A stretch of 64,000 nt of DNA, taken from Puniceicoccales bacterium (GTDB lineage: Bacteria; Verrucomicrobiota; Verrucomicrobiia; Opitutales; LL51). The notes beneath the pieces were generated by a model. That model made no database searches, had not been told where the DNA came from, and saw nothing but the letters and a program-made list of their open reading frames with translations. Each line of letters begins with the position of its first letter. The first letter of the stretch is position 1. The DNA lies in NCBI GenBank assembly GCA_031270475.1, contig JAISXO010000034.1, positions 29,491 to 93,490 on the forward strand, given 5' to 3'. The translations under genes and the position numbers were made by a program. Shown here in pieces: positions 726 through 62,370 of this stretch.

Positions 726-839
726 GGGGCAAAAGCTGTGCGGTTCACCGCACAAGGCCTGGAGCGAAGCTCCAGGCCTTTCAAGGAGCCGTAGGCTCCT
801 TGAGCTTTTGCCCCAAGCGCGCTCCTTCGGGGCGCGCTT
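726..839 (+). repeat. GC-rich nested-hairpin 'cloverleaf' element, copy C1
   Basis: Outer stem GGGGCAAAAGC (726-736) pairs with GCTTTTGCCCC (804-814). It encloses three hairpins: TGTGCGG-ttca-CCGCACA, AAGGCCTGGAGC-gaa-GCTCCAGGCCTT and CAAGGAGCC-gta-GGCTCCTTG. A trailing hairpin AAGCGCGC...GCGCGCTT spans 815-839. The element lies directly downstream of the accC stop. Confidence 0.85.
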
Positions 840-2741: not shown

Positions 2742-4385
2742 TTATTCTCCTAGGATTTCTTTCCCGCAGTCGGTGTCTTTGAATTTTACTTTTCTTTTTT
2801 CGCCATTTTCGAATTGTAAGAAAATTAACTCCGGCGAATATTCTTTTACTTTTTTATCCTGATTAAAAATCTTTAAATTCTGGGTTCCTTCGTTGGGTTT
2901 ACCTTTTCCGATGGACAGCATATCGCTGAGCATACTTTCAAAGGCTTGCGATTGTTCAGGGGGAATATTTTCATTCGTTTTTATATTTTGTATGCGATGG
3001 GGACTATGGGCTGCTCCCGCGTAGGCGAAGGTCCGCCAATTGTCAAATCCGATCTCCTTCAACAGCCAAGCGACGGTTCCATTTTGGGTTGTTGGAGGCG
3101 TGTTATAGTCTTTTAGGCCGACGAATAAAAACACAGGAATTTTGAGTTGATCGAAGATTTTTTTCAATTTCTTTCGGCTCATCCCACTCGTAATGGAAAG
3201 AGGATGGGCGTATTTATAAACGTATTTTGCTTCTTTGCCTTGGAATTCTTTAATGGGCATGGAGCAATCAATATTTTTGGGCACATCGTTCGGCGCAGCG
3301 TGTTGAAAGGCGAAGTGATTAAATGAATCAAAATACATGGGGAGTTGACCGATTGAAGAACTTCCCCAGGATTCGTTGATATAGGGCGATGCTAATCCTA
3401 CGCCGAGTTTGAAATTTTCGTTAAGGAAAGCGTATTCATTGGCGATCATTTGGGTCATGATATGGCCGCCGTTGCTATGGCCGATGAGAGCCATTCTCGT
3501 TCCATCGATATAATCCAATTTTTTAATTTCCTCGATTTGGTCTTTAATTTGTTCCCTAATATTTCCGTTGCCATTTTTCCCGCGTATGGTGATAGTAGCG
3601 AAAGCGATATCGTTTTGCACGAGGTAGCGGGCTAGCGGTTGGAGGCCGTATGTAAAATTATATGGTGTCCCCAAGAAATCATCGAAGGAAATGTCGAGTT
3701 GATTGGGATCGGAGTAACGGCAATTATCTTTAATTCCGACGCTGCCTCCATGTAACCAAAAAATGCAGGGATAGGGAGGTGTTGCGCGATCGGATTTCGG
3801 AGCATACACATAGCACGTAATATTTTCATCATCCGTTGCCACTGTTACTTCTTCGAGTTTTATGGAATCGATATTTTTCAAATTAAATTTACTATAAACT
3901 TCCTGAAAAGCTTTCCATGGGTCTGATGTATTTAAAAAATTGTTTAATTCCTTCGTAAGGGTTTCAATTTGATTTTGGAAGTTCTGGATCCTATCATATG
4001 TAGCGGTTATGCCTTTGGAGAGTATTTTCAATCGTTTTTGTTCTTTTTCTTTATCTTCCGGTGCAATGGATTCCGACTCCAGTTCTTGGATGAGGGTATT
4101 CTGTTGGGCTTGGCGGTCAGCATAATCTTTTTTCGCGCGTTTCAGTGCGATCCATGGACTACAATATCTTCCCAGATTTTCAGTGCGATTTTCAATCAAT
4201 TGGCTAAATTTGGTCGCTTGAGCCAATGTTTGACATGCTTTTACCGCATCAACTTCGCTATCATCGCTGCAAATTTCAGAAAGTGATTGTTTTGGGGGAG
4301 GATCGCCGTATAGCTTTAGTGCACTGAATTGCAAAGCATTCAATAATAATAAACTTGTAACACATGTTTTAAATTTAATATTCAT
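2742..4385 (-). CDS. secreted coiled-coil / alpha-beta hydrolase (esterase-lipase like), paralog A
   Basis: 547 aa. Hydrophobic N-terminal signal-like MNIKFKTCVTSLLLLNALQFSALKLYG. WLHGG oxyanion-type motif and GHSNGG nucleophile elbow (GxSxG). C-terminal AHSPH. Confidence 0.7.
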   Translation of the reverse strand: MNIKFKTCVTSLLLLNALQFSALKLYGDPPPKQSLSEICSDDSEVDAVKACQTLAQATKFSQLIENRTENLGRYCSPWIALKRAKKDYADRQAQQNTLIQELESESIAPEDKEKEQKRLKILSKGITATYDRIQNFQNQIETLTKELNNFLNTSDPWKAFQEVYSKFNLKNIDSIKLEEVTVATDDENITCYVYAPKSDRATPPYPCIFWLHGGSVGIKDNCRYSDPNQLDISFDDFLGTPYNFTYGLQPLARYLVQNDIAFATITIRGKNGNGNIREQIKDQIEEIKKLDYIDGTRMALIGHSNGGHIMTQMIANEYAFLNENFKLGVGLASPYINESWGSSSIGQLPMYFDSFNHFAFQHAAPNDVPKNIDCSMPIKEFQGKEAKYVYKYAHPLSITSGMSRKKLKKIFDQLKIPVFLFVGLKDYNTPPTTQNGTVAWLLKEIGFDNWRTFAYAGAAHSPHRIQNIKTNENIPPEQSQAFESMLSDMLSIGKGKPNEGTQNLKIFNQDKKVKEYSPELIFLQFENGEKRKVKFKDTDCGKEILGE

Positions 4386-4474
4386 AACGAATATTATGCT
4401 ATAAATTATTAATTATATGTCAATAACATAAGAAATATATTTTAATAATTGATACAAATTTCCGCTATGAAATT

Positions 4475-4551: not shown

Positions 4552-6405
4552 CTACATGATTGCTAAGATTTCTTGGCCACATTCCGTTTCTCCGAAGGGT
4601 ATAAGTTCTACATCATTGTTTGCATTTAACTTCATAAAAAAAGAACGTTCAGCGAAAAATTTCATGGGCTTTTGTTGTTGAAAAGAATCGTACGCCGTCG
4701 TTGCTCCATTTGATATTTCGCTTAGATCTTGAGTTCCGTTGGTGGGTTGTATACCCTGTGCAATTTGTAAAACATTGGGAAGCATTTGTCGAAACCCTTC
4801 CTCCGATGGGGGATTATTGAGATCAATCTTAAGTCGGTGAGGGCTATGTAATGCATTTTTGTAGGCTAATATTTTCCAATTGGTCAGTTCCATGTTGTGT
4901 AATCTCCAAGCTAATGTTGCGCCCTGTGTTGCGGGAAGGGTATTGCTATCGGCTGTTCCCATGAGAATAAATAACGGAGGGAGTGATGCTAGCTTGGGTT
5001 GTAGTTCGGCATCACTCATTCCGCAGGTTGGTGAAAATGGATAGGTACATTGAAGGATGTATTGCGCATGTTCAGCATTTTTTAATAGGTCATTTATTTT
5101 ATAGTTGCCTATTGATTGATTTTCAATCGAAATGGAACGATCATCGGGGGTTGCAAATTGAAAAGCGCAATCTCCAGATCGATTGTTGCCATATCCATCA
5201 AAATAAATAGCTCCTGACCATGCCTCATTCAATACGGGAGATACAAACGCTATCCCTGATTTGAAATTATCAATTAGGAATTGAGGGTCATTGGCGATCA
5301 ATAAAGACAAAATATATCCTCCAATGCTATGTCCCCAAAAGGTAATTTTATCGGTATCGATGTAAGCCAGTGTTTTAATCTTTTCTACTTGGTCTTTAAC
5401 CTGTTGTCGGAGATTACCTTTGCCGTTTTCAGAATCAAATTCAATGGTTGCACAGACTATACCGTTGGAGGCAAGAAATCGCGCTAATGGTTGGATGCCT
5501 ACGGAAACGTTGTTCGTGCGCCAATCTTGGTGAGAAGGAGGTGCCACTTGCTCAGACGCTTGTGTGTTTGGAAAAATTTGGGGGAGAGGCGGTGTCACTT
5601 GTTCTGGCGATTCGATATGTAAAGTCCCCTTCTCTTTTAACGCGCTTGCGATACTGCCTCCATGTAACCAAATGACACAAGGTAATTTTTCCCCTGAAGT
5701 TTTTTGGGTCGGAGAATAGACAACCATCGGAAGCTGCTTGTCATCCGTTTCCGTTATCAGCGTTTCGAATGTTATCACTGGGTCATGGCACTTGAGCGAA
5801 AGTGGTTCATATAGCAGAGGAGCTGCTATTTCCTGAATTAGTTTTAATTCGTTCCGTATTTTCCCTTCCCAATTATAAAATCTCCCCATTAGCGAAATCG
5901 ATTCTTGCGATTCTTGATGAGCTATAATGCGTTCAAGTTTTTCTTTTTCGGCCTCTGGAAGATTATTATTCCATGTTCCTATAATTGAATCGAGTTCTGT
6001 CTTGATTGAAGTTAAAGATGGGGCAACTAAGTTACAGAATTCATCTACGATCCCTTGAAAATTTTCAATTGCAGAACTCAATTGAACGGCTTGGTTCACA
6101 TTTTGACAATTTTTGCAGTTATTTAGATTATTGGCAGTTTTTTGCGAATATATTTGGGCGGAGCGTTTGATGTCCGTTTGGGAGGTATTTGCCTGTTCTC
6201 CTTGGATTTTCTGTTCTACTTGGCGCACTTTGTTCCGGAATGCTACGGTTTCCGGAGACAGATTTTCCATCATCAAAGCGGGATCTTGTTTAGCTTCAGA
6301 AGATGATTGTTCTGGAGGAGGATCGCCGTACAGCTTTAGTGCACTGAATTGCAAAGCATTCAATAATAATAAACTTGTAACACATGTTTTAAATTTAGTA
6401 TTCAT
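4552..6405 (-). CDS. secreted coiled-coil / alpha-beta hydrolase, paralog B
   Basis: 617 aa. The first ~30 residues are almost identical to paralog A. WLHGG and GHSIGG motifs, and a C-terminal ...ECGQEIL motif shared with paralog A (DCGKEIL). Confidence 0.7.
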   Translation of the reverse strand: MNTKFKTCVTSLLLLNALQFSALKLYGDPPPEQSSSEAKQDPALMMENLSPETVAFRNKVRQVEQKIQGEQANTSQTDIKRSAQIYSQKTANNLNNCKNCQNVNQAVQLSSAIENFQGIVDEFCNLVAPSLTSIKTELDSIIGTWNNNLPEAEKEKLERIIAHQESQESISLMGRFYNWEGKIRNELKLIQEIAAPLLYEPLSLKCHDPVITFETLITETDDKQLPMVVYSPTQKTSGEKLPCVIWLHGGSIASALKEKGTLHIESPEQVTPPLPQIFPNTQASEQVAPPSHQDWRTNNVSVGIQPLARFLASNGIVCATIEFDSENGKGNLRQQVKDQVEKIKTLAYIDTDKITFWGHSIGGYILSLLIANDPQFLIDNFKSGIAFVSPVLNEAWSGAIYFDGYGNNRSGDCAFQFATPDDRSISIENQSIGNYKINDLLKNAEHAQYILQCTYPFSPTCGMSDAELQPKLASLPPLFILMGTADSNTLPATQGATLAWRLHNMELTNWKILAYKNALHSPHRLKIDLNNPPSEEGFRQMLPNVLQIAQGIQPTNGTQDLSEISNGATTAYDSFQQQKPMKFFAERSFFMKLNANNDVELIPFGETECGQEILAIM

Positions 6406-6618
6406 AACGAATATTATGCTATAAATTATTAATTATATGTCAATAAAATAAAAAAATATATTCTCGCCGGTTGACATTAAACTTAAGATTTTTTCCCATT
6501 TCTTCCTATGACTACGATGCAATGGATATTTTTTGTGAATTACAATTATTGTTATGTCGGTAGGTATTTTTAAAATCAGATCTTGAGTTTTTCCCAGTTT
6601 CATGCATAGTGGATTGCA

Positions 6619-7404: not shown

Positions 7405-7432
7405 TTGTTTTTTTGTGGAGTTAAAAAAGCGC

Positions 7433-7492
7433 TTGACAAGTTTTGGAAGGGCGTTGATGCTAGGCAGTAGAGGGTGGGAGCAAGCGGCACGT
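7433..7492 (+). promoter_or_regulatory. promoter-like module with conserved downstream motif, copy M1
   Basis: aaaaaagcgcTTGACA (7433-7438), 17 nt, GATGCT, 5 nt, GTAGAGGGTGGGAGCAAGCGGCACGT (7467-7492). Lies 150 nt upstream of the MFS gene. Confidence 0.55.
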
Positions 7493-7642
7493 CTAAGGTC
7501 GGGGACATGAGAAATAGGGAAAAGAAACTTTACGCATTTATCTTTCTGTGTTTATCGGTTTAGAAAAAAATCAAAAAAAAGTATAATATAGCATTGGCTT
7601 TATAAACTTCTAATTAAAAAAACGTTAACATGTTTAACAGTC

Positions 7643-8835
7643 ATGGGGATGGTGGCTTCTCTTTTCTATGCCTATCAGCATATTCTGCGCGTCATGCCGA
7701 GTATTATGCTTGCTGACATCATGTTACGGTTTCGCATAGATGATAGTAGTACGGTGGGGCAATTTTCAGGTGTTTACCATATTGGCTACTCTTTGTTTCA
7801 TCTTCCCATTGGTATTTTACTCGATCGATGTGGGCCTCAAAAAGTAATTCCTGGGTGCATATTGCTTTCAATTGCGGGCATTTTACGATTATTTGTATGG
7901 AGCATTGGATATGGTCTATTTTAGGGCAATTTGCTACGGGTATTGGATCATCGGCCGCCATTCTCGGTGTATTCAAAATTATCCGGAAGGCTTACAGTGA
8001 GGAGCGTTTTGGAAGAATGCTTAATTTTTCGGTCATGATCGGGTTACTTGGCGCAATTTATGGCGGGATGCCCATTCGCTATTTGTGTAAAGTTTTAGAT
8101 TGCCAAATGGTGATTGCGATCCTCGCTTTATTGGGAATATTACTGGCGTTTGTAACGTATCGGATTGTTCCTCCCATGGGCGATGCGGGTGATAAAGGGA
8201 AGCAATCGTCTCCGTTTGTCGGGATTGGATCCGTTTTAAAGAACGCAAAGGTTATGATTATTTGTTTAACGGCGGGGCTCATGGTTGGGCCACTGGAGGG
8301 ATTTGCCGACATTTGGGGACCTAAATTTTTGAATCAAGTTTTTCACATTGAGGCATCGAAGGCCAGTTTCATCCCATCGATGGTTTTCATTGGCATATGT
8401 TTTGGTGTTCCCGTTCTCAATTTCATTGCGGAAAAATCGAAAAGCTATTTAGGAACCATTATATTTTCGGGCCTACTGATGTTTATTATCTTTACGCTAC
8501 TGAGAATAGGACTCCATCCCGATACTACGGTGCTCGCAATCGAATTATTTTTAGTCGGCATATGTTCAGCGTATCAGATATTAGCCATTTACAAAGCATC
8601 GACCTATGTGCCTGAAAATGTGGCGGGCATTACGACGGCCATGGCCAATATGATCATTGTGATTTTTGGCTACGTGTTACACAGCATGATTGGAAGTGCA
8701 ATCGAACTTTTTGGCGGGATAGAAGTGGAGTCGGCTTTTCGGAGGAGTATTGCGGTTATTTCGGGAGCCTTATTACTAGGAATCGTCGGGTTTGAGGTGG
8801 TAGCCCGTATGGCCCAAAAATATGTTAAAAAGTAG
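7643..8835 (+). pseudogene. MFS transporter interrupted by a frameshift near 7900-7921
   Basis: ORF 7643..7924 carries MFS motif A (GILLDRCGPQKV). It continues sensibly only in the frame of ORF 7828..8835 (...SILGQFATGIGSSAAILG...), a -1 shift. This is either a genuine pseudogene or a 1-nt sequence error. Confidence 0.55.
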
Positions 8836-15133: not shown

Positions 15134-15197
15134 TTGACAATATTGAAAGATGCAGGCAAACTTGGGCGGGATGATAGGAAAGGGTGGGAACAAAGGA
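15134..15197 (+). promoter_or_regulatory. promoter-like module, degenerate copy
   Basis: aaaaaaatgcTTGACA (15134-15139), 17 nt, CAAACT, then ...AAAGGGTGGGAACAAAGGAC. Lies 100 nt upstream of gmk. Confidence 0.45.
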
Positions 15198-16552: not shown

Positions 16553-17056
16553 ATAAATTTCTAAAAGAACCTAAAAATATTGTCTGCATTTTTTATTAGT
16601 TCCTCTTTTTTCTCAAAGGTAAAAACATCGAAGAATAAAAGGTTATACATTTGTTCCCTAATGGTTTCTTTTCGATTTTACGGAAAAGGTTTGTTTCTCT
16701 CGATATCCAAATATTCCCGAAACCCACTAGCGAACATAGCAATCATCCTCTAAAACATTTCTAATTTCATTTTTCATTTTAGGGGAGATATTTGGCGACT
16801 CATAAATTTCTAAAAGGACCTAAAAGCATTGTCTGTATTTTTTATTAGTTCCTCTTTTTTCTCAAAGGTAAAAACATCGAAGAATAAAAGGTTATACATT
16901 TGTTCCCTAATGGTTTCTTTTTGATTTTACGGAAAAGGTTTGTTTCCCTCGATATCCAAATATTCCCGAAACCCACTAGCGAACATAGCAATCATCCTCT
17001 AAAACATTTCTAATTTCATTTTTCATTTTAGGGAAAATATTTGGCGACTCATAAAA
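16553..17056. repeat. tandem duplication, 2 x ~249 bp
   Basis: 16553-16801 and 16802-~17056 are near-identical by eye, with a few substitutions or indels. Each unit contains the 3' end of a minus-strand open frame (...PKMKNEIRNVLEDDCYVR*) plus ~170 bp downstream. Confidence 0.9.
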
Positions 17057-19474: not shown

Positions 19475-19517
19475 AATGTGAAATGTTTTTGATTGAGTTC
19501 TTCTTGATGTGTTTTTT

Positions 19518-19588
19518 GTGCACCCGTGGAGGCTTCGCCTCCTAACCTTTTTTCAAAAGGTTTTGCGGCTTTGCCGCAACGGGTGCAC
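19518..19588. repeat. nested-hairpin element with the same architecture and a different sequence
   Basis: Outer stem GTGCACCCGT / ACGGGTGCAC encloses GGAGGC-ttc-GCCTCC, AACCTTTT-ttca-AAAAGGTT and TTGCGGC-ttt-GCCGCAA. Lies between convergent genes. Confidence 0.8.
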
Positions 19589-19596
19589 AAGTAAAT

Positions 19597-25821: not shown

Positions 25822-25964
25822 AATGGTGGTAGTATAAATTAACGGAAAAAGGGAAGCGATAAAATTTTTTTCGAGTTAATCATTGATTCGGTTAGCGAGA
25901 GCGCAGTTTGCGTCATTTCGTTGTGCATGAGCAAGAAAAATTATAATTCGAGAATAAAAAGCAC

Positions 25965-26023
25965 TTGACAGAGTAAAAAATCGTCCAAGGCTAGGGAGCA
26001 GGGGAGAGAGTAAGCGAAGCGTC
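25965..26023 (+). promoter_or_regulatory. promoter-like module, degenerate orphan copy
   Basis: aataaaaagcaCTTGACA (25965-25970), 17 nt, AGGCTA, 5 nt, CAGGGGAGAGAGTAAGCGAAGCGTC. It points at the 3' end of the convergent rpoN. Confidence 0.4.
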
Positions 26024-26081: not shown

Positions 26082-27458
26082 TTATATATATCGCCGCACG
26101 TTTGCCGACGGAATCGCAAGGAACGTACGATATTTAGTCACGGTTCGTCGAGCAATCCAAATGCCTTCATTTTGAAGTATTTGGGCGATTTTTTCATCGC
26201 TGAGCGGTTTGTTTTTGTTTTCATTTTTGATAATATTTTTAATACTCTCTCGGAGCGTGTTTTGTGCGATGAGGGAGCCATGATTACCGTGGGAAAAAAA
26301 GAAATCCAGCGGAATAATTCGATGTGGAATTTGAACATATTTATTTTTGACAGCCCGGGAAAGTGTTGTGGAGTGGATTTCGAGGCATTCCGCCACTTGT
26401 TTTTGACTCTGCGGACGAAGAAAATCACTGCCATTTTCTAGGAAGTCGCTTTGAAATTTCAAAATATATTCGGCAATTTTTTGTAAAGTTTCCCGGCGCT
26501 TGTGCAGCATCTTAACCAAAAATTGGGCTTGTTGTTTGTTCTCGGTAAAAAAATTACGGTCTTCGCGCTTTGATGAATGGGTAAACATCCTTAGGTAAAG
26601 GTCATTTATACGAATTTCCGGTGCACCGCGAACTTCGCAGCTCCAATGGCCGTCAATTTTTTGGAAAATAATTTCTGGAACAATCGCCGGATTGGCGTTG
26701 GGCATAATCGTTTTGAGCGGTGCAAAATTTAGCAATTTCAAGGGCACCAAAAGTGTACGCAATTCGGATGCCGTCTTACATAATTTTCTCCGCAATTTAG
26801 CGAATCGGCGATGCTCGAGGTCATCGAAATAGTGTGCAACGAGGTCATGGAGCGGCGTATTTTCCGGAATTTGCAACCGAAAGCAATCCTGCAAATCATG
26901 GGCACCAATCCCCTTCGGCGAAAGCGATCGCAATATCGCATAGGCTGTTTCAAAAACATTTTGCCGCGCATCGTCGGTCCGCGCATCGCAATTTTCCTCG
27001 CCATCCGGCCAAGAAATCCCGTACTGCTGAGCCGCATCCTCTGGCAAAAATCCGCGATCATCGAGGCTATTAATTAGCGTCGTCAGTGCCGTTTTTGTCG
27101 CCTCGTCCAAATCGGGAACCTGGGCGAGGAGGTAATCCTCAGGTGAATCTTCGGCACTAATATTTTCTAAAAAATTTGGATTGCTTTCTTCGTTATTTGG
27201 TATATCGCTCGTGCGCGCGCGCGCGCTCATATTAATAGTACTTTCCTTACTTGCACTCGCTGGAAAGCCGTAGGGAGCCGTGTCGGCGATGTCGAGAAGG
27301 GGGTTGCGCTGAATTTCCGCAGCAATGAGCCGGTAAAGTTCCTCGGTCGGCAATTGCAAAATGTCCAGAGAACGGAGCATGGACGGAGATAGTCGTTGGC
27401 TTTGAATTTGTAGGCGATCGTTCCTTAGGTCCACGGCGTAAGCATGGAGAGATACCAA
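26082..27458 (-). CDS. rpoN: RNA polymerase sigma-54 factor
   Basis: 458 aa. Gln/Leu-rich region I, HTH region, and RpoN box ARRTVTKYR near the C-terminus. Confidence 0.95.
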   Translation of the reverse strand: MVSLHAYAVDLRNDRLQIQSQRLSPSMLRSLDILQLPTEELYRLIAAEIQRNPLLDIADTAPYGFPASASKESTINMSARARTSDIPNNEESNPNFLENISAEDSPEDYLLAQVPDLDEATKTALTTLINSLDDRGFLPEDAAQQYGISWPDGEENCDARTDDARQNVFETAYAILRSLSPKGIGAHDLQDCFRLQIPENTPLHDLVAHYFDDLEHRRFAKLRRKLCKTASELRTLLVPLKLLNFAPLKTIMPNANPAIVPEIIFQKIDGHWSCEVRGAPEIRINDLYLRMFTHSSKREDRNFFTENKQQAQFLVKMLHKRRETLQKIAEYILKFQSDFLENGSDFLRPQSQKQVAECLEIHSTTLSRAVKNKYVQIPHRIIPLDFFFSHGNHGSLIAQNTLRESIKNIIKNENKNKPLSDEKIAQILQNEGIWIARRTVTKYRTFLAIPSANVRRYI

Positions 27459-27708
27459 CTTTTTTCAAGAAATGAAGTTAATTTTTGAGGGAATCAATCT
27501 GTGCCAAAAGAATTTCCGCAGCAATGAGCCGGTAAAGTTTCTCGGTCGGCAATTGCAAAATGTCCAGAGAACGGAGCATGGACGGAGATAGTCGTTGGCT
27601 TTGAATTTGTAGGCGATCGTTTCTTAGGTCCACGGCGTAAGCATGGAGAGATACCAACTTTTTTCAAGAAATGAAGTTAATTTTTGAGGGAATCAATCTG
27701 TACCAAAA
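27311..27708. repeat. tandem duplication, 2 x 199 bp, covering the rpoN 5' end and upstream region
   Basis: 27311-27509 and 27510-27708 differ at only a few positions by eye. The distal copy holds an rpoN start codon at 27657 and 49 identical or near-identical codons. Confidence 0.9.
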
Positions 27709-29087: not shown

Positions 29088-29505
29088 AACTTTCCATTAA
29101 ATTTATTTATTTATTTTGTTTTTGGCGCCGAGTTTTTGGAGATCGTCGCATTGGGAGAAAAGGCCGCCGCGGCCGTTAATTTTCGGAATAATTTTATCAT
29201 CAAACTGCTCGTGCACCTTGCCAAAGAGCTTGTACAGTTCGCGCAATTCGTCAAGCAATCCACAAAATTTATCGTACAATTTTCCACTGAGGCCGGGTCA
29301 ACTTTCCATTAAATTTTCTTTTTTAATTGATTTTTTATTTTTGGCGCCGAGTTTTTGGAGATCGTCGCATTGGGAGAGAAGGCCGCCGCGGCCGTTGATT
29401 TTCGGAATAATTTTATCATCAAACTGCTCGTGCACCTTGCCAAAGAGCTTGTACAGTTCGCGCAATTCGTCAAGCAATCCACAAAATTTATCGTACAATT
29501 TTCCG
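29088..29505. repeat. tandem duplication, 2 x ~212-219 bp, covering the rmuC 3' end and the rmuC-serS junction
   Basis: 29088-29299 and 29300-~29505 are near-identical apart from an AT-rich indel patch. Both copies end (minus strand) with ...TTAATGGAAAGTT(A/G)A, encoding LMES-stop. Confidence 0.9.
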
Positions 29506-30608
29506 CCGCGATCGGCAATTTCCTGTGCATTGAGGTTTTGTTTTTCGACCTGCCAAATCGCTTGAATCAGTCTCAGTGTCAAAAATAGCGTGGAAGGATA
29601 AACAATAATTACATTTTTCTGACGAGCGTATTCACAGATATCTTTTTTATGGGCCGAGGGATTGGAGACGACGCTCGCGTAGGCCGATTCGATGGGTAAA
29701 AACATCAGTAAAAATGGGCAAATATCGATGGCATTTTTAATTTGGTGGTATTTGGCTACTTCGTCGATGTGTTTTTGAATGGAGGCAATATGTTGCTGGA
29801 AAAACCGTTCCCGTTCCTGGGGGTCGGGGGTATTGACCATGCGTTCGTAGGCGGAAAGGGAGACCTTTGCATCGATCAAAATCCACTGATTGCGCGGGAG
29901 TTTGATGAGGAAATCCGGTCGAGCGGCTCCGTCATCGATCTTCAATTCGAGCCCCCTCCCTTGCTTGACATAGTCGCCATTTTCTTCAGATAGCCCGGCC
30001 TGCTCGAGGAGATTTTCCAGTTGAACCTCGCCCCAATCTCCCTGAATCTTCGCGTTATTGCGCAGGGCATTGGTCAAATTTTCGGCTTCGTTATGCATTT
30101 TTTCCACGCTGTCGAGGAGCGATTTGAGGTGGATCGACAGTTCCGTGCGCGATTTTGTTTCCGGAGAGAAAATTTCGGTTTTGAAGGTAGAGAATTCTTT
30201 TTGGAGATCGACGATAAGGTGGCCGATTTCCTTTTGTGTCTCCTCGGAAAATTTTTGTTTTTTGGCTTCTAGAATTTCCTGGGAGAGGCTGGAGAGCTCG
30301 AGTTTGAGTTGCTCTCGATGTTTGAGGATTTCGCTACGAGCGGTTTCGATAGCAATTTTTTCACCGGAGAGCCGTTGAAAATTTTCAAAAAGCTGATTGA
30401 ATTCCTGAGTTTTCTGTAAAAACTGCGCTTCAATGGCGGATAATCTCCCTTGTAATTCGGCCTTTTGCGTGGCGATTTCGGTGAAGCGCTCTTGGATATC
30501 CTTGAGTTGTGCAGCCAATGCGTTACATTCACTGCGATATTTATTAGCAAAATAGCAGATAATTCCTAGGAAAAACCCACAAGAAATAAGACACAGCGCA
30601 ATGATCAT
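29298..30608 (-). CDS. rmuC: DNA recombination protein RmuC
   Basis: 436 aa. N-terminal TM helix, long coiled coil, and RmuC nuclease-like C-domain (RPDFLIKLP..., IDAKVSL). Confidence 0.9.
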   Translation of the reverse strand: MIIALCLISCGFFLGIICYFANKYRSECNALAAQLKDIQERFTEIATQKAELQGRLSAIEAQFLQKTQEFNQLFENFQRLSGEKIAIETARSEILKHREQLKLELSSLSQEILEAKKQKFSEETQKEIGHLIVDLQKEFSTFKTEIFSPETKSRTELSIHLKSLLDSVEKMHNEAENLTNALRNNAKIQGDWGEVQLENLLEQAGLSEENGDYVKQGRGLELKIDDGAARPDFLIKLPRNQWILIDAKVSLSAYERMVNTPDPQERERFFQQHIASIQKHIDEVAKYHQIKNAIDICPFLLMFLPIESAYASVVSNPSAHKKDICEYARQKNVIIVYPSTLFLTLRLIQAIWQVEKQNLNAQEIADRGGKLYDKFCGLLDELRELYKLFGKVHEQFDDKIIPKINGRGGLLSQCDDLQKLGAKNKKSIKKENLMES

Positions 30609-30935
30609 GACAAAATATTATCTAAACCGCCAAAGAAATTTATTCAAATCCAAAAAATTTCCCCCAAAAAAGCTTGACATTAATTAAAAGCGCTGAAATA
30701 CTTGCTGCCAAGCGCTCTTGGATATCCTTGAGTTGTGCAGCCAATGCGTTACATTCACTGCGATATTTATTAGCAAAATAGCAGATAATTCCTAGGAAAA
30801 ACCCACAAAAAATAAGACACAGCACAATGATCATGACAAAATATTATCTAAACCGCCAAAGAAAATTATTCAAATCTAAAAAAAAATCCCAAAAAAGCTT
30901 GACATTAATTAAAAGCGCTGAAATACTCGCTACCA
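30484..30935. repeat. tandem duplication, 2 x 226 bp, covering the rmuC 5' end and the divergent promoter region
   Basis: 30484-30709 and 30710-30935 are near-identical. ORF 30640..30834(-) is the decoy rmuC 5' fragment; its first 41 aa match RmuC closely. Confidence 0.9.
30899..30927 (+). promoter_or_regulatory. candidate sigma70-type promoter (a duplicate sits at ~30673-30701)
   Basis: aaaaaagcTTGACA (30899-30904), 17 nt, AATACT (30922-30927). Lies 11 nt upstream of ATG 30938. Confidence 0.5.
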
Positions 30936-34611: not shown

Positions 34612-34820
34612 TTTTTCTCAGATCAATAAATTATATCCGCAAAATTTATCAAGAAAGATAGGCCGTCGATTTGCAATTTTCTATGACATTCATATTTATT
34701 TTATATTTTTAGGCGAAATTTACGAACAATTTTTCCAAAATGCTTCCAAGGGTATTGTCATTTAATATTTCGTCTTTAGAAAAGCGTTATTTTCTCTGGT
34801 ATAATCCCTAGCCACCTAAC

Positions 34821-34915
34821 TTCTTTCAATGTATTGTAAAGCGCCAGAGATAGACGAATCGTTCCGCCAATGCCGAGCGCATGCATCAACGAATTACGCA
34901 TAGTGATATCCGGTG
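34821..34915 (-). pseudogene. displaced partial copy of the sufS 3' region
   Basis: 34821-34915 matches sufS 35077-35172 with an offset of 256 bp. The first ~80 bp are highly similar by eye and the rest is weaker. It lies beyond the sufS stop codon. Confidence 0.75.
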
Positions 34916-35010: not shown

Positions 35011-36234
35011 TTATCGATGGGAATTTTTCTTAAAAATATGGATAATTTTGTCCATGGCAGTGACCAGTTGCTCAATTTCTTCCAATGTGTTGTAAGGCGC
35101 CAGAGATAGACGAACCGTTCCGCCAATGCCGAGCGCATGCATCAACGGTTGCGCACAGTGATGCCCGGCTCGTACCGCAATTCCCTCGCTATCAAATATA
35201 CTGGCCACATCGTGGGGATGCGCGGATCGATGAATGAATGAAATAATTCCCGTTCGCTGATTGTTCGGCTTGAGAACCTCAATGGACGAATTTTGTCCCA
35301 AAATTTCCAAAACATGCCCCTTGAGTCCCTCGCCATATCTTTGTGCCTCAATCCAATCTATCTTCCCGAGAAATCGAATCGCTTCCCGTAGCCCCGTAAC
35401 TCCAACAACATTCGGCGTACCTGCTTCAAAACGAGTAGGAATCTCGCGGAATAAGGCCGGTTGATCGAAGGCTACGCGATCGACAATCCCTCCGCCTAAG
35501 TGGTACGGCTGAAAATGCTCCAGGTGTTCGGCGCGGCCATAGAGAAATCCAATTCCCATCGGCCCAAAAGCCTTGTGCGCGGAAGTTGCAAAGAAATCAC
35601 ACTCCATCTCCCGTACATCAATCGGTCCGTGTCCCAATGATTGCGCGCCATCGACGATGCAAAGCGCTCCAACCCTATGCGCCATCTGGGCAATTTTTTT
35701 TATCGGATTAATCGTCCCTAAAACGTTTCCAATGTGCGCAATGGAAACAATCCGCGTGCGCTCCGAAAGCTTGTGCCCAAAATCATTCCCGTCGAAATCG
35801 CCCGCTTCCGTCATCGATACAATGCGAATCGTCGCCCTAAGCCGCTGCCATGGAAGAATATTAGCGTGGTGTTCCTGGACAAATAAAATAATTTCATCTT
35901 CCGTTGTGAGAGATGCGAATTGGGATGCTAGAAAATTGATGCCTTCCGTCGTCCCCGAATTGAGAATGATTTCCCGTGGCTCGCGAGCGTTGATCCAATG
36001 GGCGATTTCTCGGCGTGTAGACTCGTAAATTTCCTCGGCCTTCGCACTGAGATCATATATCCCGCGGTGGACGTTAGCGTTAGTTGTGCGCAGATGGTAG
36101 GCCATTGCTCCGATGACACGCTCCGGTAATTGAGTTGTGGCCGCGTTATCGAAGTAAATCAGAGGCTTTTCAAAACGATTGTGACCACTTAAGATCGGGA
36201 ATTCCTGGCGAAAGGCGTGAACATCGAAACTCAT
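35011..36234 (-). CDS. sufS: cysteine desulfurase (SufS/CsdA class V aminotransferase)
   Basis: 407 aa. HHANILPWQ, SAHKAFGPMGIG (PLP lysine) and RAGHHCAQP motifs. Confidence 0.9.
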   Translation of the reverse strand: MSFDVHAFRQEFPILSGHNRFEKPLIYFDNAATTQLPERVIGAMAYHLRTTNANVHRGIYDLSAKAEEIYESTRREIAHWINAREPREIILNSGTTEGINFLASQFASLTTEDEIILFVQEHHANILPWQRLRATIRIVSMTEAGDFDGNDFGHKLSERTRIVSIAHIGNVLGTINPIKKIAQMAHRVGALCIVDGAQSLGHGPIDVREMECDFFATSAHKAFGPMGIGFLYGRAEHLEHFQPYHLGGGIVDRVAFDQPALFREIPTRFEAGTPNVVGVTGLREAIRFLGKIDWIEAQRYGEGLKGHVLEILGQNSSIEVLKPNNQRTGIISFIHRSAHPHDVASIFDSEGIAVRAGHHCAQPLMHALGIGGTVRLSLAPYNTLEEIEQLVTAMDKIIHIFKKNSHR

Positions 36235-36366
36235 AGCGAGATTTGTCTAGCCCTTTAGAATTTTTTACCGTTGTCAAGCTTTTTTATTTTTTAGTGTTAT
36301 TCCCGTGGATGAATTCCCATCCCGAAGATATGATAAATAACAGTTCAGTGTGTGGCGGAAAATTTT

Positions 36367-36426
36367 ACGCGCCGCTTGCTCCCACCCTCTACCTTCCAGT
36401 CTTGAAAGAATTTCAGGACCTATCAA
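36367..36426 (-). promoter_or_regulatory. promoter-like module with conserved motif (faces sufS)
   Basis: The minus strand reads CTTGATA (36426-36421), 17 nt, AAGACT, 5 nt, GTAGAGGGTGGGAGCAAGCGGCGCGT. Lies 133 nt upstream of the sufS ATG. Confidence 0.55.
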
Positions 36427-36478
36427 GTCGTTTCTGAAAAGATAATTTTCAAAAATAAAAATATTTTGTATTTTCTTC

Positions 36479-36506
36479 TTGACATAATTCATAAAATCGC
36501 GACAAT
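36479..36506 (+). promoter_or_regulatory. candidate promoter of the pilin-like gene
   Basis: TTGACA (36479-36484), 16 nt, GACAAT (36501-36506). Divergent from the module at 36367-36426. Confidence 0.45.
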
Positions 36507-36628
36507 CGCTTCATGATTGATTTGCAAAGCAACAAAGCGTAAAAAGTAAAAGTAAATCTTTTACGTTAGTTGAGATTGTTTTTACTATTGCCATCATCGG
36601 CATTTTACTAGCCATTCTTCCGCCGGCA

Positions 36629-37330
36629 ATGAGTGCCATCAAACTCGGCGCACAAAAGGCAAAGGATCAATCCAACTTGCAAAAAATTGCCGAAGCTTGG
36701 CGCGGAGCCGTGATCGATCGCGGCTGGATAATCGATGGTGAAAGTGGCGGAAATATAAAATCTACCGATTTTGCAGAGCAATTGGCCGGACGAGATAATG
36801 GGAAAAGTATCTCGGATATGATTTTGAATGATCCCTATGTTTGGATTTCTCCAGGCGATAAATATGCCTCAAGAATTCAAAAAGAATCACTTTGTATTTT
36901 AGTGGATGATTCTGTCCGATTCGCTGACGCTTTTATGGAAGTTAATGGCAATTTTATGGTCTCGGGAAAATACCTACTTAGTTATTGCATCGTATGTAGG
37001 TTGCCCGGGAATGTTCCTCTCGATACGACGCCGCTCGGTTTTACGCGTGGACTTAACAAAAATGGAAAGTGGGATGAAAAAGCTAGCCTATATGGCTCGA
37101 AGGGCGGCTATGTCGTTTTCTGCGATGGTCACGTCGCGTGGTTTGACGGCAGTAAGCCAGCACGATTCTTGAAATGGGGTGGGTCGGGTGTTACACGACT
37201 GATATTTGTGAAGCAGTTCCTGGTGGCACTTGGATTACATGTGCCCACGATTATGATAGAATTCAAGCAGCTTACTGGGGCGAAGATGCTAAAGCCATCC
37301 TCAGTTCCGCCGGTATCGGTTGATGATTGA
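36629..37330 (+). CDS. prepilin-type / H-X9-DG family protein (N-terminus apparently frameshifted)
   Basis: C-terminal DGHVAWFDG fits H-X9-DG. In-frame upstream sequence (36560-36628) encodes SFTLVEIVFTIAIIGILLAILPPA but has no in-frame start. The ATG at 36513 is in another frame and stops at 36540. Confidence 0.6.
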   Translation: MSAIKLGAQKAKDQSNLQKIAEAWRGAVIDRGWIIDGESGGNIKSTDFAEQLAGRDNGKSISDMILNDPYVWISPGDKYASRIQKESLCILVDDSVRFADAFMEVNGNFMVSGKYLLSYCIVCRLPGNVPLDTTPLGFTRGLNKNGKWDEKASLYGSKGGYVVFCDGHVAWFDGSKPARFLKWGGSGVTRLIFVKQFLVALGLHVPTIMIEFKQLTGAKMLKPSSVPPVSVDD

Positions 37331-37335: not shown

Positions 37336-37613
37336 TTCACGTGCCGCTTGCTCCCACCCTTGAAAGAATTTCAGGGCCTGTCAAGTCGTTTCTGAAAAGA
37401 TAATTTTCAAAAATAAAAATATTTTGTATTTTCTTTTTGACATAATTCATAAAATCGCGACAATCACTTTATGGTCGATTTGCAACGCAACAAAGCGTAA
37501 GGAGCAAAAGTAAATCTTTTACATTGATTGGAATCGTTTTTATTATTGCCATCACCGGCATTTTACATGCCGCTTGCTCCCACCCTTGAAAGAATTTCAG
37601 TGCCTGTCAAGTG
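37336..37613. repeat. second copy of the divergent-promoter / pilin 5' segment, flanked by two short-form modules
   Basis: 37336-37567 matches 36365-36608. Short modules at 37339-37384 and 37565-37610 (minus) read TTGACA, 17 nt, AAGGGTGGGAGCAAGCGGCA(C/T)GT, which is a 13-nt deletion relative to the long form. Confidence 0.85.
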
Positions 37614-37854
37614 ATTTTTTTGGAATTATTAATACTAGCTTCGTCATTTGGATTTCTAGTATCGGTGAAAGTTGAAATAAATCGCCAGGAATACCTTGAA
37701 AAACTGATATCTACTTTCCCTCTTTGAAAAAACCGGACCTCTGCCAAGTGATTTTTTGAAAATAAATCAATAAAAAATAACAAAACATTGATAGATTGCG
37801 TTTCCAGTTTCCAAAAAGTAATTCCCGGAATTTTTATTTATACTTTGACAATAA

Positions 37855-39054
37855 TTGCCGAAAAATACGTTTATTCCCATGGACGCGCTCGTCAAACTCG
37901 TCGACGGTATCGATACAATTGTTGGACAGGAGTCCCTATCGGAACGCCTATCGCAAAAAAAAATCCTGAAAGTGAAACTTGGTGTCGATCCAACTCGCCC
38001 CGATTTGACCTTTGGCCATATGGTCGTTTTCAATAAATTGCGCCAGTTTCAGGATCTCGGCCACGAAGCAATTTTGCTGATCGGCGACCATACTGCTACC
38101 ATTGGCGATCCTTCCGGTCGTTCTTCGACGCGCCCGGTGTTGACTACCCAAGAGGTCGACCAAAATGCCAAAACTTACCTCGAGCAGGCCTTCAAAATTA
38201 TCGATCCCGAGAGGACGACGATTCGGCGCAATAGCGAGTGGTTTCGAAGGATGACGTTCGACGATATGCTCATTATTGCCCGTAAAATGACGGTTGCGCG
38301 GATGCTTGAGCGGGACGATTTTGCGAAACGCTACCGCGAAAATGAGCCCATTTCCATTGTCGAGTTTTTATATCCTTTGATGCAGGGGTATGATTCGGTC
38401 ATGCTCGAAGCCGACGTCGAGCTTGGCGGAACGGATCAATTTTTCAATTTATTGGTTGGCCGCGCGCTCCAAAGGGATTATGGCCAGCGGGAGCAGATTG
38501 TCATCACGATGCCGCTCATCGTCGGTCTTGATGGGAAGCGTAAAATGTCAAAAAGTTACGATAATTACATTTCATTTAACCATTCTTCAAAGGATATGTT
38601 TGGGCGGATCATGTCGATTCCGGACGAAGTGATGTGGACCTATTTCAAGTTATTATTGGAGTATTCTGACGGGGCGATCGAGGCGTTGAAGGGGGGGCAT
38701 CCCATGGATGCGAAAAAATTTTTGGCTCGATCGTTGGTGGCGCGATTTTACGGTCCAGAAGTCGGGGAGCAAGAGTTAGCGGATTTTGAGGCGGTATTTT
38801 CGCATGGAGAAATCCCGGAAGCGATGCCGGAATTTTCGTTACAAGCGATGGCAAAGGATCCGGTTACTTTAGCCGACGCGATGGCATATTCGCAATTTTT
38901 TGAAAGCAATCGAGAGATTCGCCGACTCATTGAGCAAGGAGCTGTCAAAGTTAATGGGAAGAGTGAAAAGAATTTTAAGTTTCCTTTACGATCCGACCGC
39001 TGTCCCCATGTCATTCAGTCTGGCAAGCGCATATTTTTAAAAGTTATTCCGTAG
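37855..39054 (+). CDS. tyrS: tyrosyl-tRNA synthetase
   Basis: 399 aa. Class I motifs (TFGHMV HIGH-like, KMSKS). C-terminal S4-like domain (IRRLIEQGAVKVNG). Alternative start at 37879. Confidence 0.9.
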   Translation: MPKNTFIPMDALVKLVDGIDTIVGQESLSERLSQKKILKVKLGVDPTRPDLTFGHMVVFNKLRQFQDLGHEAILLIGDHTATIGDPSGRSSTRPVLTTQEVDQNAKTYLEQAFKIIDPERTTIRRNSEWFRRMTFDDMLIIARKMTVARMLERDDFAKRYRENEPISIVEFLYPLMQGYDSVMLEADVELGGTDQFFNLLVGRALQRDYGQREQIVITMPLIVGLDGKRKMSKSYDNYISFNHSSKDMFGRIMSIPDEVMWTYFKLLLEYSDGAIEALKGGHPMDAKKFLARSLVARFYGPEVGEQELADFEAVFSHGEIPEAMPEFSLQAMAKDPVTLADAMAYSQFFESNREIRRLIEQGAVKVNGKSEKNFKFPLRSDRCPHVIQSGKRIFLKVIP

Positions 39055-55928: not shown

Positions 55929-56007
55929 AGATTCCTCCTTTACCCATATTGGGAAGTTTTGAAGAAATTCAAGTTTTTGAAAAAACTTATTGGCGAAGGG
56001 ATTTTTT

Positions 56008-56067
56008 ACATGCCGCTTGCTCCCACCCTCTACTCTCCAGCCTTGCCGCACTTTTTATTGTTGTCAA
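56008..56067 (-). promoter_or_regulatory. promoter-like module with conserved motif (faces recD2)
   Basis: The minus strand reads aaaaaaaCTTGACA (56067-56062), 17 nt, AAGGCT, 5 nt, GTAGAGGGTGGGAGCAAGCGGCATGTAAAAAA. Confidence 0.55.
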
Positions 56068-56096
56068 GTTTTTTTAATATTTTTTTAAGTGATGAC

Positions 56097-57311: not shown

Positions 57312-57504
57312 GAAAAATTTATAAATTTCCCGAAAAAACCATCCATCCAAAGGGAGGGTCCGAGAGGCTCTCCCAATTTTTGTTTGTACTAAATTATTTT
57401 GAAATTTTATTATTTTTTTAAGATATTCTCGCTGATTTATTTCAATTTCCTCCGGTACTGGAAACTTAAATGACAAGGCTACCATTAATATTTAAAAAAA
57501 CAAC

Positions 57505-57564
57505 TTGACAGGTATTGAAATTCTTCCAAGTTTGAAGGGTAGAGGGTAGGAGCAAGCGGCATGT
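57505..57564 (+). promoter_or_regulatory. promoter-like module with conserved motif, orphan copy
   Basis: aaaaaaacaaCTTGACA (57505-57510), 17 nt, AAGTTT, 5 nt, GTAGAGGGTAGGAGCAAGCGGCATGTGAAAAA. The next gene (mnmE) is convergent. Confidence 0.5.
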
Positions 57565-57607
57565 GAAAAATAGAGCGTAAATTTTTTAGAATTAATTAAT
57601 AGTTTAC

Positions 57608-61102: not shown

Positions 61103-61126
61103 ATTTATATCGCTGTTCGGCGGGCT

Positions 61127-61214: not shown

Positions 61215-61272
61215 AAGGTCCATCGCCCGATAAATTCTTGCGAAAATCCGAGGACTTCTTTTACCCTTAGTC

Positions 61273-62364: not shown

Positions 62365-62370
62365 TTGATT

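What the first reader, a model, noticed from the sequence alone, without database searches (positions are those of the whole stretch)
7433..7492. Recurrent promoter-like module with a conserved ~30-nt initial transcribed sequence (8 copies in 64 kb)
Shared layout: A-tract, CTTGACA, 17 nt, an A2/T6-type hexamer (GATGCT, AAGACT, AAGGCT, AAGTTT, CAAACT), exactly 5 nt, then GTAGAGGGTGGGAGCAAGCGGCA(Y)GT(R)AAAA.

Copies:
- 7433-7492 (+)
- 36367-36426 (-)
- 56008-56067 (-)
- 57505-57564 (+)
- 15134-15197 (+), degenerate
- 25965-26023 (+), degenerate
- 37339-37384 (-), short form with 13 nt deleted
- 37565-37610 (-), short form with 13 nt deleted

The fixed -35/-10/motif spacing places the predicted start at the beginning of the conserved block. 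Every such transcript would therefore begin with the same leader.

Four copies lie 80-150 nt upstream of unrelated genes in the right orientation: the MFS gene, gmk, sufS and recD2. Ordinary promoters in the window (30899, 36272-36277(-), 36479) share the A-tract and CTTGACA but lack the block, so the block is a separate add-on. It could be an operator for a global regulator, a shared 5'-leader RNA element, or the end of a promoter-carrying mobile repeat. I do not recognise it.
Basis: partly seen in the sequence, partly recalled or inferred. Interest (0 to 1): 0.75.

Follow-up and report, generated by a model that had tools for sequence, protein, structure and literature searches.

The report
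Promoter-like repeat family with shared leader
This is a real, lineage-specific family of about 75-base intergenic repeats in termite-gut Verrucomicrobia that look like promoters fused to an invariant 26-base start-of-transcript block; they occur singly and in tandem arrays in any orientation relative to genes, so they behave like propagating promoter cassettes, not a gene regulon.

Summary
Four full copies and two 13-nt-deleted copies have the layout A-tract, CTTGACA, 17 nt, hexamer, 5 nt, GTAGAGGGTGGGAGCAAGCGGCA(Y)GT. One degenerate copy (25965) is weakly supported and one (15134) is doubtful.

The window comes from a Puniceicoccales MAG. The full module was found only in related termite-gut Puniceicoccales MAGs: 59 copies in the window plus 13 loci. 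They often form tandem arrays of up to 11 units with no ORFs and no terminators.

Conservation is position-specific. The A-tract, -35, hexamer and block are kept, while the 17-nt spacer is free. No RNA structure, Rfam family, ORF, terminal inverted repeat or target duplication was found.

Orientation to neighbouring genes looks random: about 12 sites co-oriented, 6 antisense and 6 in convergent gaps. MFS and sufS have their own proximal promoters, and an orthologous pilin-sufS gap in a relative lacks the module.

Best reading: a self-contained promoter cassette that spreads by segmental and tandem duplication and is sometimes co-opted by housekeeping genes. The block's role is unresolved; my guess is a 5' RNA leader. 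It is a new variant of "mobile promoters" and of moderate interest.

The parts
7428..7495 (+). Module copy 1. A-tract 7423-7428, -35 TTGACA 7433-7438, hexamer GATGCT 7456-7461, block 7467-7492. Lies between surE and a frameshifted MFS gene.
   Evidence: nhmmer E=1e-13. About 90 nt are shared with L031, including the GATGCT hexamer, with the block 26/26 identical. L031's flanking genes are not homologous to the window's.
36364..36431 (-). Module copy 2. -35 TTGATA 36426-36421, hexamer AAGACT 36403-36398, block 36392-36367. Upstream of sufS and divergent from a pilin-like gene.
   Evidence: A module is also present in L087, but the downstream gene there is greA-like. It is absent from the orthologous gap in L120.
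56006..56070 (-). Module copy 3. -35 56067-56062, hexamer AAGGCT 56044-56039, block 56033-56008. Starts 30 nt after tRNA-Leu and lies upstream of recD2.
   Evidence: The position behind tRNA-Leu is the same in L013, but L013 has an 11-unit array and different genes downstream.
57500..57567 (+). Module copy 4. -35 57505-57510, hexamer AAGTTT 57528-57533, block 57539-57564 (GGGTAGG variant). Lies in the convergent gap between the Band7 gene and mnmE and points into the 3' end of mnmE.
   Evidence: No module was found in the syntenic gap of L013.
37336..37389 (-). Short-form copy 7, with 13 nt deleted between the hexamer and the block. It ends 9 nt after the stop codon of the pilin-like gene and is antisense to it.
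   Evidence: It is part of a 228-nt repeat, 36386-36613 ~ 37344-37571, at 88% identity.
37562..37615 (-). Short-form copy 8, the tandem partner of copy 7 at 226-nt spacing. Its upstream 93 nt (37617-37709) are homologous to the region upstream of copy 4 (57408-57500).
   Evidence: (D10, I1).
25961..26023 (+). Degenerate copy, pointing into the 3' end of rpoN.
   Evidence: nhmmer E=9e-4; rpoN.
15134..15197 (+). Doubtful relic. It has TTGACA, 17 nt, CAAACT, and then a block-like AAGGGTGGGAACAAAGG displaced by about 12 nt. It lies upstream of gmk.
   Evidence: It was not detected by the module profile.

Best explanation
The module is a self-contained, lineage-specific promoter cassette of about 75 nt. 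It consists of an A-rich UP-like tract, a consensus -35 (C-TTGACA), a 17-nt spacer, a -10-like hexamer (consensus AAGGCT) and, 5 nt later, a 26-nt G-rich block that would form the first 26 nt of the transcript.

Inferred behaviour. Most copies probably bind the housekeeping RNA polymerase holoenzyme and start an RNA at the G/A of GTAGAGGG. Every such RNA would then carry the same leader.

How it multiplies. The cassette spreads at the DNA level, by tandem duplication (arrays of 110-310-nt units) and by dispersed segmental duplication or gene conversion with variable boundaries. I found no sign of a recognisable transposase. As a result it lands in every kind of intergenic gap.

Consequences for genes. 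Where a cassette faces a gene it adds an upstream promoter. Examples are aspS, rpsA, a lysS-like gene, tmRNA, sufS, recD2, dprA and ftsK. Elsewhere it would make orphan or antisense RNA.

Role of the block. This is inference only. I think it most likely acts as a 5'-terminal, Shine-Dalgarno-like RNA leader that favours promoter escape and/or protects the 5' end, for example by binding a 30S subunit or a protein. Recombination among copies may help keep it uniform.

Shown: the anatomy, the position-specific conservation, the distribution, the arrays and the lack of orientation bias. Inferred: promoter activity, the transcription start, the mode of spread and the role of the block.
For: Anatomy and conservation.
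- The register is exact in all full copies.
- Across 53 in-register copies the AAAA tract is 92-98% conserved and the C before TTGACA 91%.
- Hexamer positions 1, 2 and 6 are A49, A47 and T49 of 53. Spacer positions are only 34-55% conserved over most of their length. Most block positions are 66-96% conserved (7 of 26 at 83% or more) in that set, which includes the two block variants. In the 36 tightly in-register copies the block has the highest information content of the module.

The hexamer type is used by real promoters here. The sufS proximal promoter is conserved between the window and L120 as TTGACA-17-AGGGCT / AATGCT.

Conservation versus flanks. In three between-species comparisons the block is 24-26 of 26 identical, while the spacer and flanks are diverged, mostly beyond recognition.

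Specificity. The full module occurs only in Puniceicoccales MAG loci. In 106 control loci only the searched 17-mer matches. Viral hits are chance matches.

Arrays. L013 has 11 units over 2.4 kb without ORFs. L016 has 4 units before aspS and 6 more elsewhere. L094 has 6 units before rpsA. L036 and L085 each have 3 or more.

Variable repeat boundaries. 228 nt are shared by copies 2 and 7, about 160 nt by copies 4 and 8, and about 90 nt by copy 1 and L031.

Presence/absence. The orthologous pilin-sufS gap in L120 lacks the module.

Block properties. It is purine-rich and pairs with the anti-SD at -9 kcal/mol.

Precedent. Propagated promoters of 50-100 nt upstream of unrelated genes are a described phenomenon (PMC3488235).
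Against: - No transcript data exist, so promoter activity and the start site are untested.
- The hexamer matches TATAAT at only 2 of 6 positions, and the sigma-70 scan never flags a module.
- The conserved tRNA-Leu promoter uses a canonical TACACT / TATATT -10.
- All six hexamer positions are fairly conserved, not only A2 and T6. This fits shared ancestry or another reader of that sequence as well as it fits -10 function.
- About half of the sites cannot serve a gene.
- A leader that only aids escape or stability would not need 26 near-invariant bases.
- Five relatives show no copy in 86.5 kb, so the element is dispensable.
- The loci were fetched because they contain the block, so copy density outside the window is biased.
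Confidence: 0.5

Rival explanations
1. Operator model. The block is the DNA site of a lineage-specific regulator that sits at +1 to +26 of a set of promoters and represses or activates them together, forming a global regulon. Arrays would act as extra sites or a sink.
For: - The distance from the hexamer is fixed, and primary-sequence conservation is near-invariant with no RNA structure.
- Co-oriented targets are mostly housekeeping and translation genes: aspS, rpsA, a lysS-like gene, tmRNA, gmk and sufS.
- The 3' half of the block can be reiterated with a 19-nt period in L048.
Against: - The block has neither dyad nor direct-repeat symmetry (sequence).
- Half of the sites have no gene to regulate.
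- Real operators are degenerate, whereas this block is almost invariant.
- The module is present or absent at orthologous gaps and absent from 86.5 kb of relatives.
Confidence: 0.15
2. Small-RNA gene family. Each module plus its tail is an independent non-coding RNA gene. The conserved 26 nt is the functional 5' domain (a seed or a protein-binding handle), and tandem arrays are multi-copy sRNA clusters.
For: - There is no orientation bias with respect to neighbours, copies occur in convergent gaps, and arrays lack ORFs.
- Promoter features are kept even where no gene follows.
- One unit subfamily carries an inverted copy of the block about 35 nt downstream, giving a long hairpin (z = -2.5 to -3.3).
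- Tandem sRNA arrays in which each unit has its own promoter exist elsewhere, for example NsiR1 in Nostoc. That example is from my own knowledge and was not checked here.
Against: - No intrinsic terminators occur in the arrays.
- Tails are unrelated between subfamilies, and most show no stable fold (mean z = -0.64).
- There is no consensus structure and no Rfam hit.
- Roughly one copy per 10 kb in the window would be far more than any known sRNA family.
- A G-rich seed would not target ribosome-binding sites.
Confidence: 0.15
3. Not a promoter at all. The module is a recombination or transposition substrate, or a decaying relic, whose ends (the A-tract/TTGACA side and the block side) are kept for mobility or by gene conversion. 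On this view the resemblance to a promoter is incidental. REP/RAYT-like or 3'-anchored copy mechanisms belong here.
For: - The block starts with GTAG, as REP sequences do.
- About a third of copies can form a 6-7-bp hairpin around the hexamer. Within-copy complementarity exceeds between-copy complementarity (permutation p = 0.003, though copies are not independent).
- Copies share the block side but have upstream homology of variable length.
- Synteny breaks at modules.
- The block length of about 26 nt is close to the minimal length for RecA-type homologous recombination. That figure is from my own knowledge.
Against: - The block is not a palindrome, and the module has no terminal inverted repeats or target duplications.
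- No transposase or RAYT was seen among the 29 of the 48 large window ORFs that were scanned, or next to the arrays.
- The exact 17-nt spacing, the consensus -35 and the upstream A-tract are hard to explain other than as a promoter.
- The hairpin is absent from most copies.
Confidence: 0.12

Closest known systems
Putative mobile promoters (PMPs; Matus-Garcia, Nijveen & van Passel 2012, PMC3488235)
   Same: Both are short (50-100 nt) promoter-containing sequences repeated upstream of non-homologous genes within a genome and shared between related genomes. In both cases there is no IS or MITE signature.
   Different: - PMPs were defined only upstream of genes and at 80% identity or more. Window copies are 74-79% identical over 68-81 nt.
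- Half of these copies are orphan or antisense.
- Many copies are tandemly arrayed.
- Conservation is concentrated in a 26-nt initial-transcribed block at a fixed register, which has not been described for PMPs.
REP / BIME / REPIN extragenic repeats with RAYT transposases
   Same: Both are high-copy, strictly intergenic repeats found singly and in clusters. The block has a leading GTAG, and one subfamily has an inverted partner that forms a hairpin.
   Different: The block is not an imperfect palindrome. No RAYT was seen. REPs do not carry a -35 / 17 nt / -10 architecture.
Correia (CREE) and similar MITEs that carry outward promoters
   Same: Both are small intergenic repeats that can supply promoters to neighbouring genes and alter transcripts.
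   Different: This family has no terminal inverted repeats, no target-site duplication and no fixed element length.
Tandem sRNA or promoter arrays (for example NsiR1 in Nostoc) and tandem intergenic repeats of Ehrlichia ruminantium (PMC10710844)
   Same: Both involve head-to-tail intergenic units of 100-300 nt, each with its own promoter-like sequence. In both, repeats in non-coding DNA actively expand and contract.
   Different: Here there are no terminators and no conserved RNA fold. The same unit is also dispersed as single copies in front of unrelated genes.

Membership tests
Sigma-70-type (housekeeping) promoter | -35 hexamer close to TTGACA and a 17 +/- 1 nt spacer | tested here: met
   55 of 59 copies have TTGA[CT][AG]. 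The spacer is 17 nt in essentially all in-register copies.
Sigma-70-type (housekeeping) promoter | -10 hexamer resembling TATAAT, with A at position 2 and T at position 6 | tested here: inconclusive
   A2 is present in 47/53 and T6 in 49/53 copies, but the consensus AAGGCT matches TATAAT at only 2 of 6 positions and the scan tool never flags a module. A similar hexamer (AGGGCT / AATGCT) serves the conserved sufS proximal promoter.
Sigma-70-type (housekeeping) promoter | Transcription starts about 7 nt after the -10 element | not testable with these tools
   No transcript data are available.
Sigma-70-type (housekeeping) promoter | Lies upstream of, and co-oriented with, a transcription unit | tested here: not met
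   About 12 of 24 sites are co-oriented, about 6 are antisense and about 6 lie in convergent gaps.
Putative mobile promoter (PMC3488235) | 50-100 nt, at least 80% identical, upstream of non-homologous genes | tested here: inconclusive
   The module lies upstream of unrelated genes (MFS, sufS, recD2, aspS, rpsA and others). Pairwise identity of window copies is 74-79% over 68-81 nt (I2, I4, I5), just under the published cut-off.
REP / REPIN | Imperfect palindrome of 20-40 nt that forms a hairpin | tested here: not met
   RNAalifold on 24 modules gives -2.7 kcal/mol with a covariation term of -0.08.
REP / REPIN | Associated RAYT (Y1 transposase) gene | not tested
   None was found among the ORFs scanned, which covered 29 of the 48 large window ORFs. 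The full genomes could not be searched.
MITE / IS end | Terminal inverted repeats and target-site duplication | tested here: not met
   Neither is visible at the copy 1 / L031 boundaries or elsewhere. Repeat boundaries vary between copies.
Known RNA family (Rfam 15) | Match to a covariance model | tested here: not met
   Only tRNA and tmRNA were found, in the window at the gathering threshold and in six array loci at E <= 1.
sRNA gene | Own promoter plus a defined 3' end (intrinsic terminator) and a conserved fold | tested here: not met
   The only terminator-like site in L013 3300-6000 is the tRNA itself, against 4.3 expected by chance. No conserved fold was found.

The most novel reading that the evidence does not exclude
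The 26-nt block is a genuine 'common leader'. On this reading, hundreds of transcripts in these symbiotic Verrucomicrobia, both mRNAs and orphan RNAs, begin with the same RNA tag. One trans-acting factor (the 30S subunit through the SD-like GGGUGGGAG, an RNA-binding protein or an RNase) reads that tag. This would give a genome with few regulators a single post-transcriptional handle on housekeeping expression. The orphan arrays would act as a titrating sponge.
Probability: 0.12. Interest if true: 0.8.

Novelty: new variant of a known kind. Interest (0 to 1): 0.45.

Why it matters
If the cassettes fire, this would be an unusually clear case of promoters multiplying inside bacterial genomes. There is roughly one copy per 10 kb in the window, with arrays of up to 11 units, and the family is kept across at least six species-level genomes.

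It shows how expression signals can be copied to unrelated genes: aspS, rpsA, tmRNA, sufS and recD2. It would also generate antisense transcription into other genes, such as pilin-like genes, mnmE, mutS and rpoN.

The fixed, near-invariant initial-transcribed block is the unusual part. It offers a defined 26-nt sequence whose role in promoter escape, RNA stability or factor binding can be tested directly. The module is also a practical marker for this termite-gut lineage and a likely cause of breaks in MAG assemblies.

Tried and rejected
- **Rfam.** The window was scanned at the gathering threshold and six array loci at E <= 1. Only tRNA and tmRNA were found.
- **Conserved RNA structure in the module.** None was found.
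- **5' hairpin between block and tail.** It is significant only in the var2 and L036/L085 subfamilies. Mean z is -0.64.
- **Hairpin centred on the hexamer.** It is present in about 12 of 36 copies and is not general.
- **Hairpin around the -35.** Inconsistent, judged by eye from the listing.
- **Coding reading from the TTG of TTGACA.** It is broken by TAG in the GGGTAGG variants (copy 4 and L013_3427; sequences).
- **Mini-ORF ATG-TAA after an SD-like GGGAG.** The 'ATG' varies among ACG, GCG and ATG.
- **Small ORFs in array tails.** Start codons and frames are not conserved.
- **Array tails as decayed pilin-like genes.** There is no tblastn signal.
- **Sigma-54 -24/-12, ECF-type, parS, dif, Chi and KOPS-like readings of the block.** Each shows only partial resemblance by eye, and block orientation in the window is mixed.
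- **Phage origin.** The five viral hits are chance 17-mers without the promoter part.
- **JGI metagenome scan for the 20-mer.** 0 hits.
- **Exact-protein look-ups of the window's SufS.** Not on record.
- **Empty-site analysis at copy 4 against L013.** The gap is too diverged to define boundaries.
- **The window's 200-250-nt tandem duplications.** These mostly do not contain TTGACA promoters, so they are a separate phenomenon.

Full report

The 23-nt block with up to 3 mismatches occurs six times in the window, against zero in 100 shuffles.

Four sites have the complete layout: 7433-7492(+), 36367-36426(-), 56008-56067(-) and 57505-57564(+). Each has an A-tract, C-TTGACA (TTGATA in copy 2), exactly 17 nt, a hexamer (GATGCT, AAGACT, AAGGCT or AAGTTT), exactly 5 nt, and then GTAGAGGGTGGGAGCAAGCGGC(A/G)(C/T)GT.

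The two short forms at 37339-37384(-) and 37565-37610(-) share one 13-nt deletion. They are the two units of a 226-nt tandem duplication, so they count as one event.

The degenerate copy at 25965 is weakly supported (nhmmer E=9e-4). The one at 15134 was not detected by the profile. It has a displaced, block-like AAGGGTGGGAACAAAGG.

**2. Where does it come from, and how far does it extend?**

The window's SufS is 100% identical to a protein of an NCBI 'Puniceicoccales bacterium' MAG on a 99.9-kb contig. Puniceicoccales is an order of Verrucomicrobiota, class Opitutia.

- 13 of these loci belong to five termite-gut Puniceicoccales MAGs: Gsp477_bin70, Pcl387_bin18, Cc175_bin33, Ncb351_bin30 and Ct408_bin149. 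These carry the whole module in the same register.
- In the other loci, and in five viral contigs, only the searched 17-mer matches and never the promoter part.

A profile built from the copies finds 59 modules (E <= 1e-3) in the window plus those 13 loci. The JGI metagenome scan for a 20-mer found nothing.

Around SufS homologues of five relatives (60-80% amino-acid identity) there are no copies in 86.5 kb. The family is therefore clade-restricted or patchy, and dispensable.

**3. Anatomy and conservation**

Across 53 in-register copies:
- the upstream AAAA is 92-98% conserved;
- the C before TTGACA is 91% conserved;
- the hexamer is AAGGCT in 28 copies, with A1 in 49, A2 in 47 and T6 in 49 of 53;
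- most spacer positions are only 34-55% conserved;
- most block positions are 66-96% conserved (7 of 26 at 83% or more), the set including the two block variants. In the 36 tightly in-register copies the block has the highest information content of the module.

Between species the block stays 24-26 of 26 identical while the spacer and flanks diverge, mostly beyond recognition. The comparisons were window versus L013, L031 and L087.

Two block variants exist. One is AAGGATAGGAGTAGGCGGCACGT, found in L013 and L055. The other is AAGGGTGGGAACAACCGGCRCGT, found in an L016 array.

The module has no conserved secondary structure: RNAalifold gives -2.7 kcal/mol with a covariation term of -0.08. It matches no Rfam family.

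A 6-7-bp hairpin centred on the hexamer exists in about a third of copies but not in the rest. Folding of the predicted 5' 76 nt is not unusually stable overall (mean z = -0.64). The exceptions are subfamilies whose tail carries an inverted copy of the block (z down to -3.3 in the var2 units, and -5.6 in one L036 unit).

**4. Is it a promoter?**

For:
- It has a consensus -35, an exact 17-nt spacing and an UP-like A-tract.
- A2 and T6 of the hexamer are kept.
- The sufS proximal promoter, conserved between the window and L120, uses the same type of hexamer (TTGACA-17-AGGGCT / AATGCT).

Against:
- AAGGCT matches TATAAT at only 2 of 6 positions.
- The sigma-70 scan never flags a module.
- The conserved tRNA-Leu promoter has a canonical TACACT / TATATT -10.

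Promoter activity is therefore plausible but unproven.

**5. Relation to genes**

I classified about 24 independent sites, counting each array once.
- About 12 are co-oriented with a downstream gene: MFS, sufS, recD2, gmk, aspS, rpsA, a lysS-like aaRS, tmRNA, dprA, a xerC-like recombinase, a greA-like gene and ftsK.
- About 6 are antisense in co-directional gaps. Four of these lie 7-27 nt behind the stop codon of pilin-like (N-terminal methylation motif) genes.
- About 6 lie in convergent gaps, facing mnmE, mutS, a T2SS-F gene and others.

The orientation of the upstream neighbour is also unbiased.

Several co-oriented genes have their own promoters. MFS has a proximal TTTAGA-17-TATAAT. sufS has a proximal TTGACA promoter. 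The pilin-like gene has TTGACA-16-GACAAT.

The orthologous pilin-sufS gap in L120 lacks the module. At the tRNA-Leu locus, synteny with L013 holds upstream of the module but not downstream. Copy 1 and the L031 module share about 90 nt, but their flanking genes are not homologous.

The module is therefore not tied to particular downstream genes.

**6. Arrays and mode of spread**

- In L013 the module behind tRNA-Leu heads an array of 11 units (175-310 nt each, 2.4 kb in total). The array has no ORFs of 60 aa or more on that strand, and the only terminator-like site in the region is the tRNA gene itself.
- L016 has 4 units before aspS and 6 at the other end of the locus. L094 has 6 before rpsA. 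L036 and L085 each have 3 or more.
- Many MAG contigs begin or end in an array, as expected for a high-copy repeat.
- Within the window, repeat boundaries differ between copies. 228 nt are shared by copies 2 and 7, and about 160 nt by copies 4 and 8, which lie 20 kb apart in inverted orientation.
- There are no terminal inverted repeats or target duplications. No transposase appeared among the 29 of the 48 large window ORFs scanned, or next to the arrays.
- The 3' half of the block can itself be reiterated with a 19-nt period in L048.

Together this points to duplication, slippage and gene conversion as the mode of spread, not transposition.

**7. Interpretation**

The best-supported reading is a self-contained promoter cassette that propagates within this lineage and is sometimes co-opted as an extra upstream promoter. 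The closest precedent is the 'putative mobile promoter' concept (PMC3488235).

It differs from that concept in three ways: tandem amplification, the many orphan and antisense copies, and the invariant initial-transcribed block at a fixed register.

The function of the block is not resolved. It is conserved as primary sequence, is purine-rich and SD-like (-9 kcal/mol with the anti-SD), and has no symmetry. I favour an RNA-level 5' leader role in promoter escape or 5'-end protection, with homogenisation by recombination contributing to its uniformity. Three alternatives remain open: a DNA operator, an sRNA 5' domain and a recombination substrate.

**8. Limits**

- No expression data were available.
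- The MAG loci were selected because they contain the block.
- Gene calls in the loci are ORF-based.
- Copies within arrays are not independent, so the statistics are indicative only.

Noticed in passing
window 16553-17050, 27311-27708, 29114-29515, 30484-30896, 38957-39499, 47558-47915: There are six tandem duplications of 198-249 nt at 93-98% identity. Several span gene ends: the rpoN 5' end, both ends of rmuC and the tyrS 3' end. Only one (30484-30896) contains a TTGACA promoter. The pattern resembles the actively expanding intergenic tandem repeats of Ehrlichia ruminantium (PMC10710844).
   Followed up: partly
window 749-817, 19516-19590, 53651-53683, 61119-61217, 62369-62465: A separate GC-rich family of double-hairpin repeats (AAGGCCTGGAGCGAAGCTCCAGGCCTT...CAAGGAGCC...GGCTCCTTG) lies in intergenic gaps. 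They look like REP-like elements or terminators.
   Followed up: no
window 7643-7924 / 7828-8835; 36519-36628: The MFS gene is split into two overlapping frames. In the pilin-like gene, the N-terminal methylation-motif segment (KSFTLVEIVFTIAIIGILLAIL) is out of frame with the only upstream ATG. These are either pseudogenes or homopolymer sequencing errors.
   Followed up: partly
window 34818-34891 vs 35074-35147; 62294-62363 vs 62593-62662: Partial copies of the 3' ends of sufS and of the gene at 61273-62364 are repeated 256-299 nt downstream of the originals.
   Followed up: no
window ~55945-55985 (-); L120 ~270-305: A second propagated promoter-like segment, CAAAAACTTGAATTTCTTCAAAACTTCCCAATATG, lies between copy 3 and recD2 in the window. 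It lies upstream of the sufS promoter in the relative L120. A similar string forms the spacer of copies 2, 4, 7 and 8.
   Followed up: partly
window 4275-4435 vs 6295-6455: Two adjacent S9-peptidase-like paralogues share a 161-nt 5' region at 95% identity, which suggests recent duplication or gene conversion.
   Followed up: no
L048 1779-3926; L087 5003-5728; L094 156-1052; window 36629-37330: Pilin-like genes recur next to modules in four genomes. The junction 'GAT TGA AAAATTTT(C/G)AC(G/A)TGC...' places the reverse-complemented block directly after the stop codon in the window and in L048. Any transcript from the module would be antisense to the whole gene.
   Followed up: partly
L013 3774-3803, 4154-4183, 5699-5728 (- strand): The array tails contain near-consensus sigma-70 promoters (TTGAAA-18-TAAAAT, 10 of 12 matches) on the opposite strand, pointing back through the block. 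Convergent transcription within the arrays is therefore possible.
   Followed up: no
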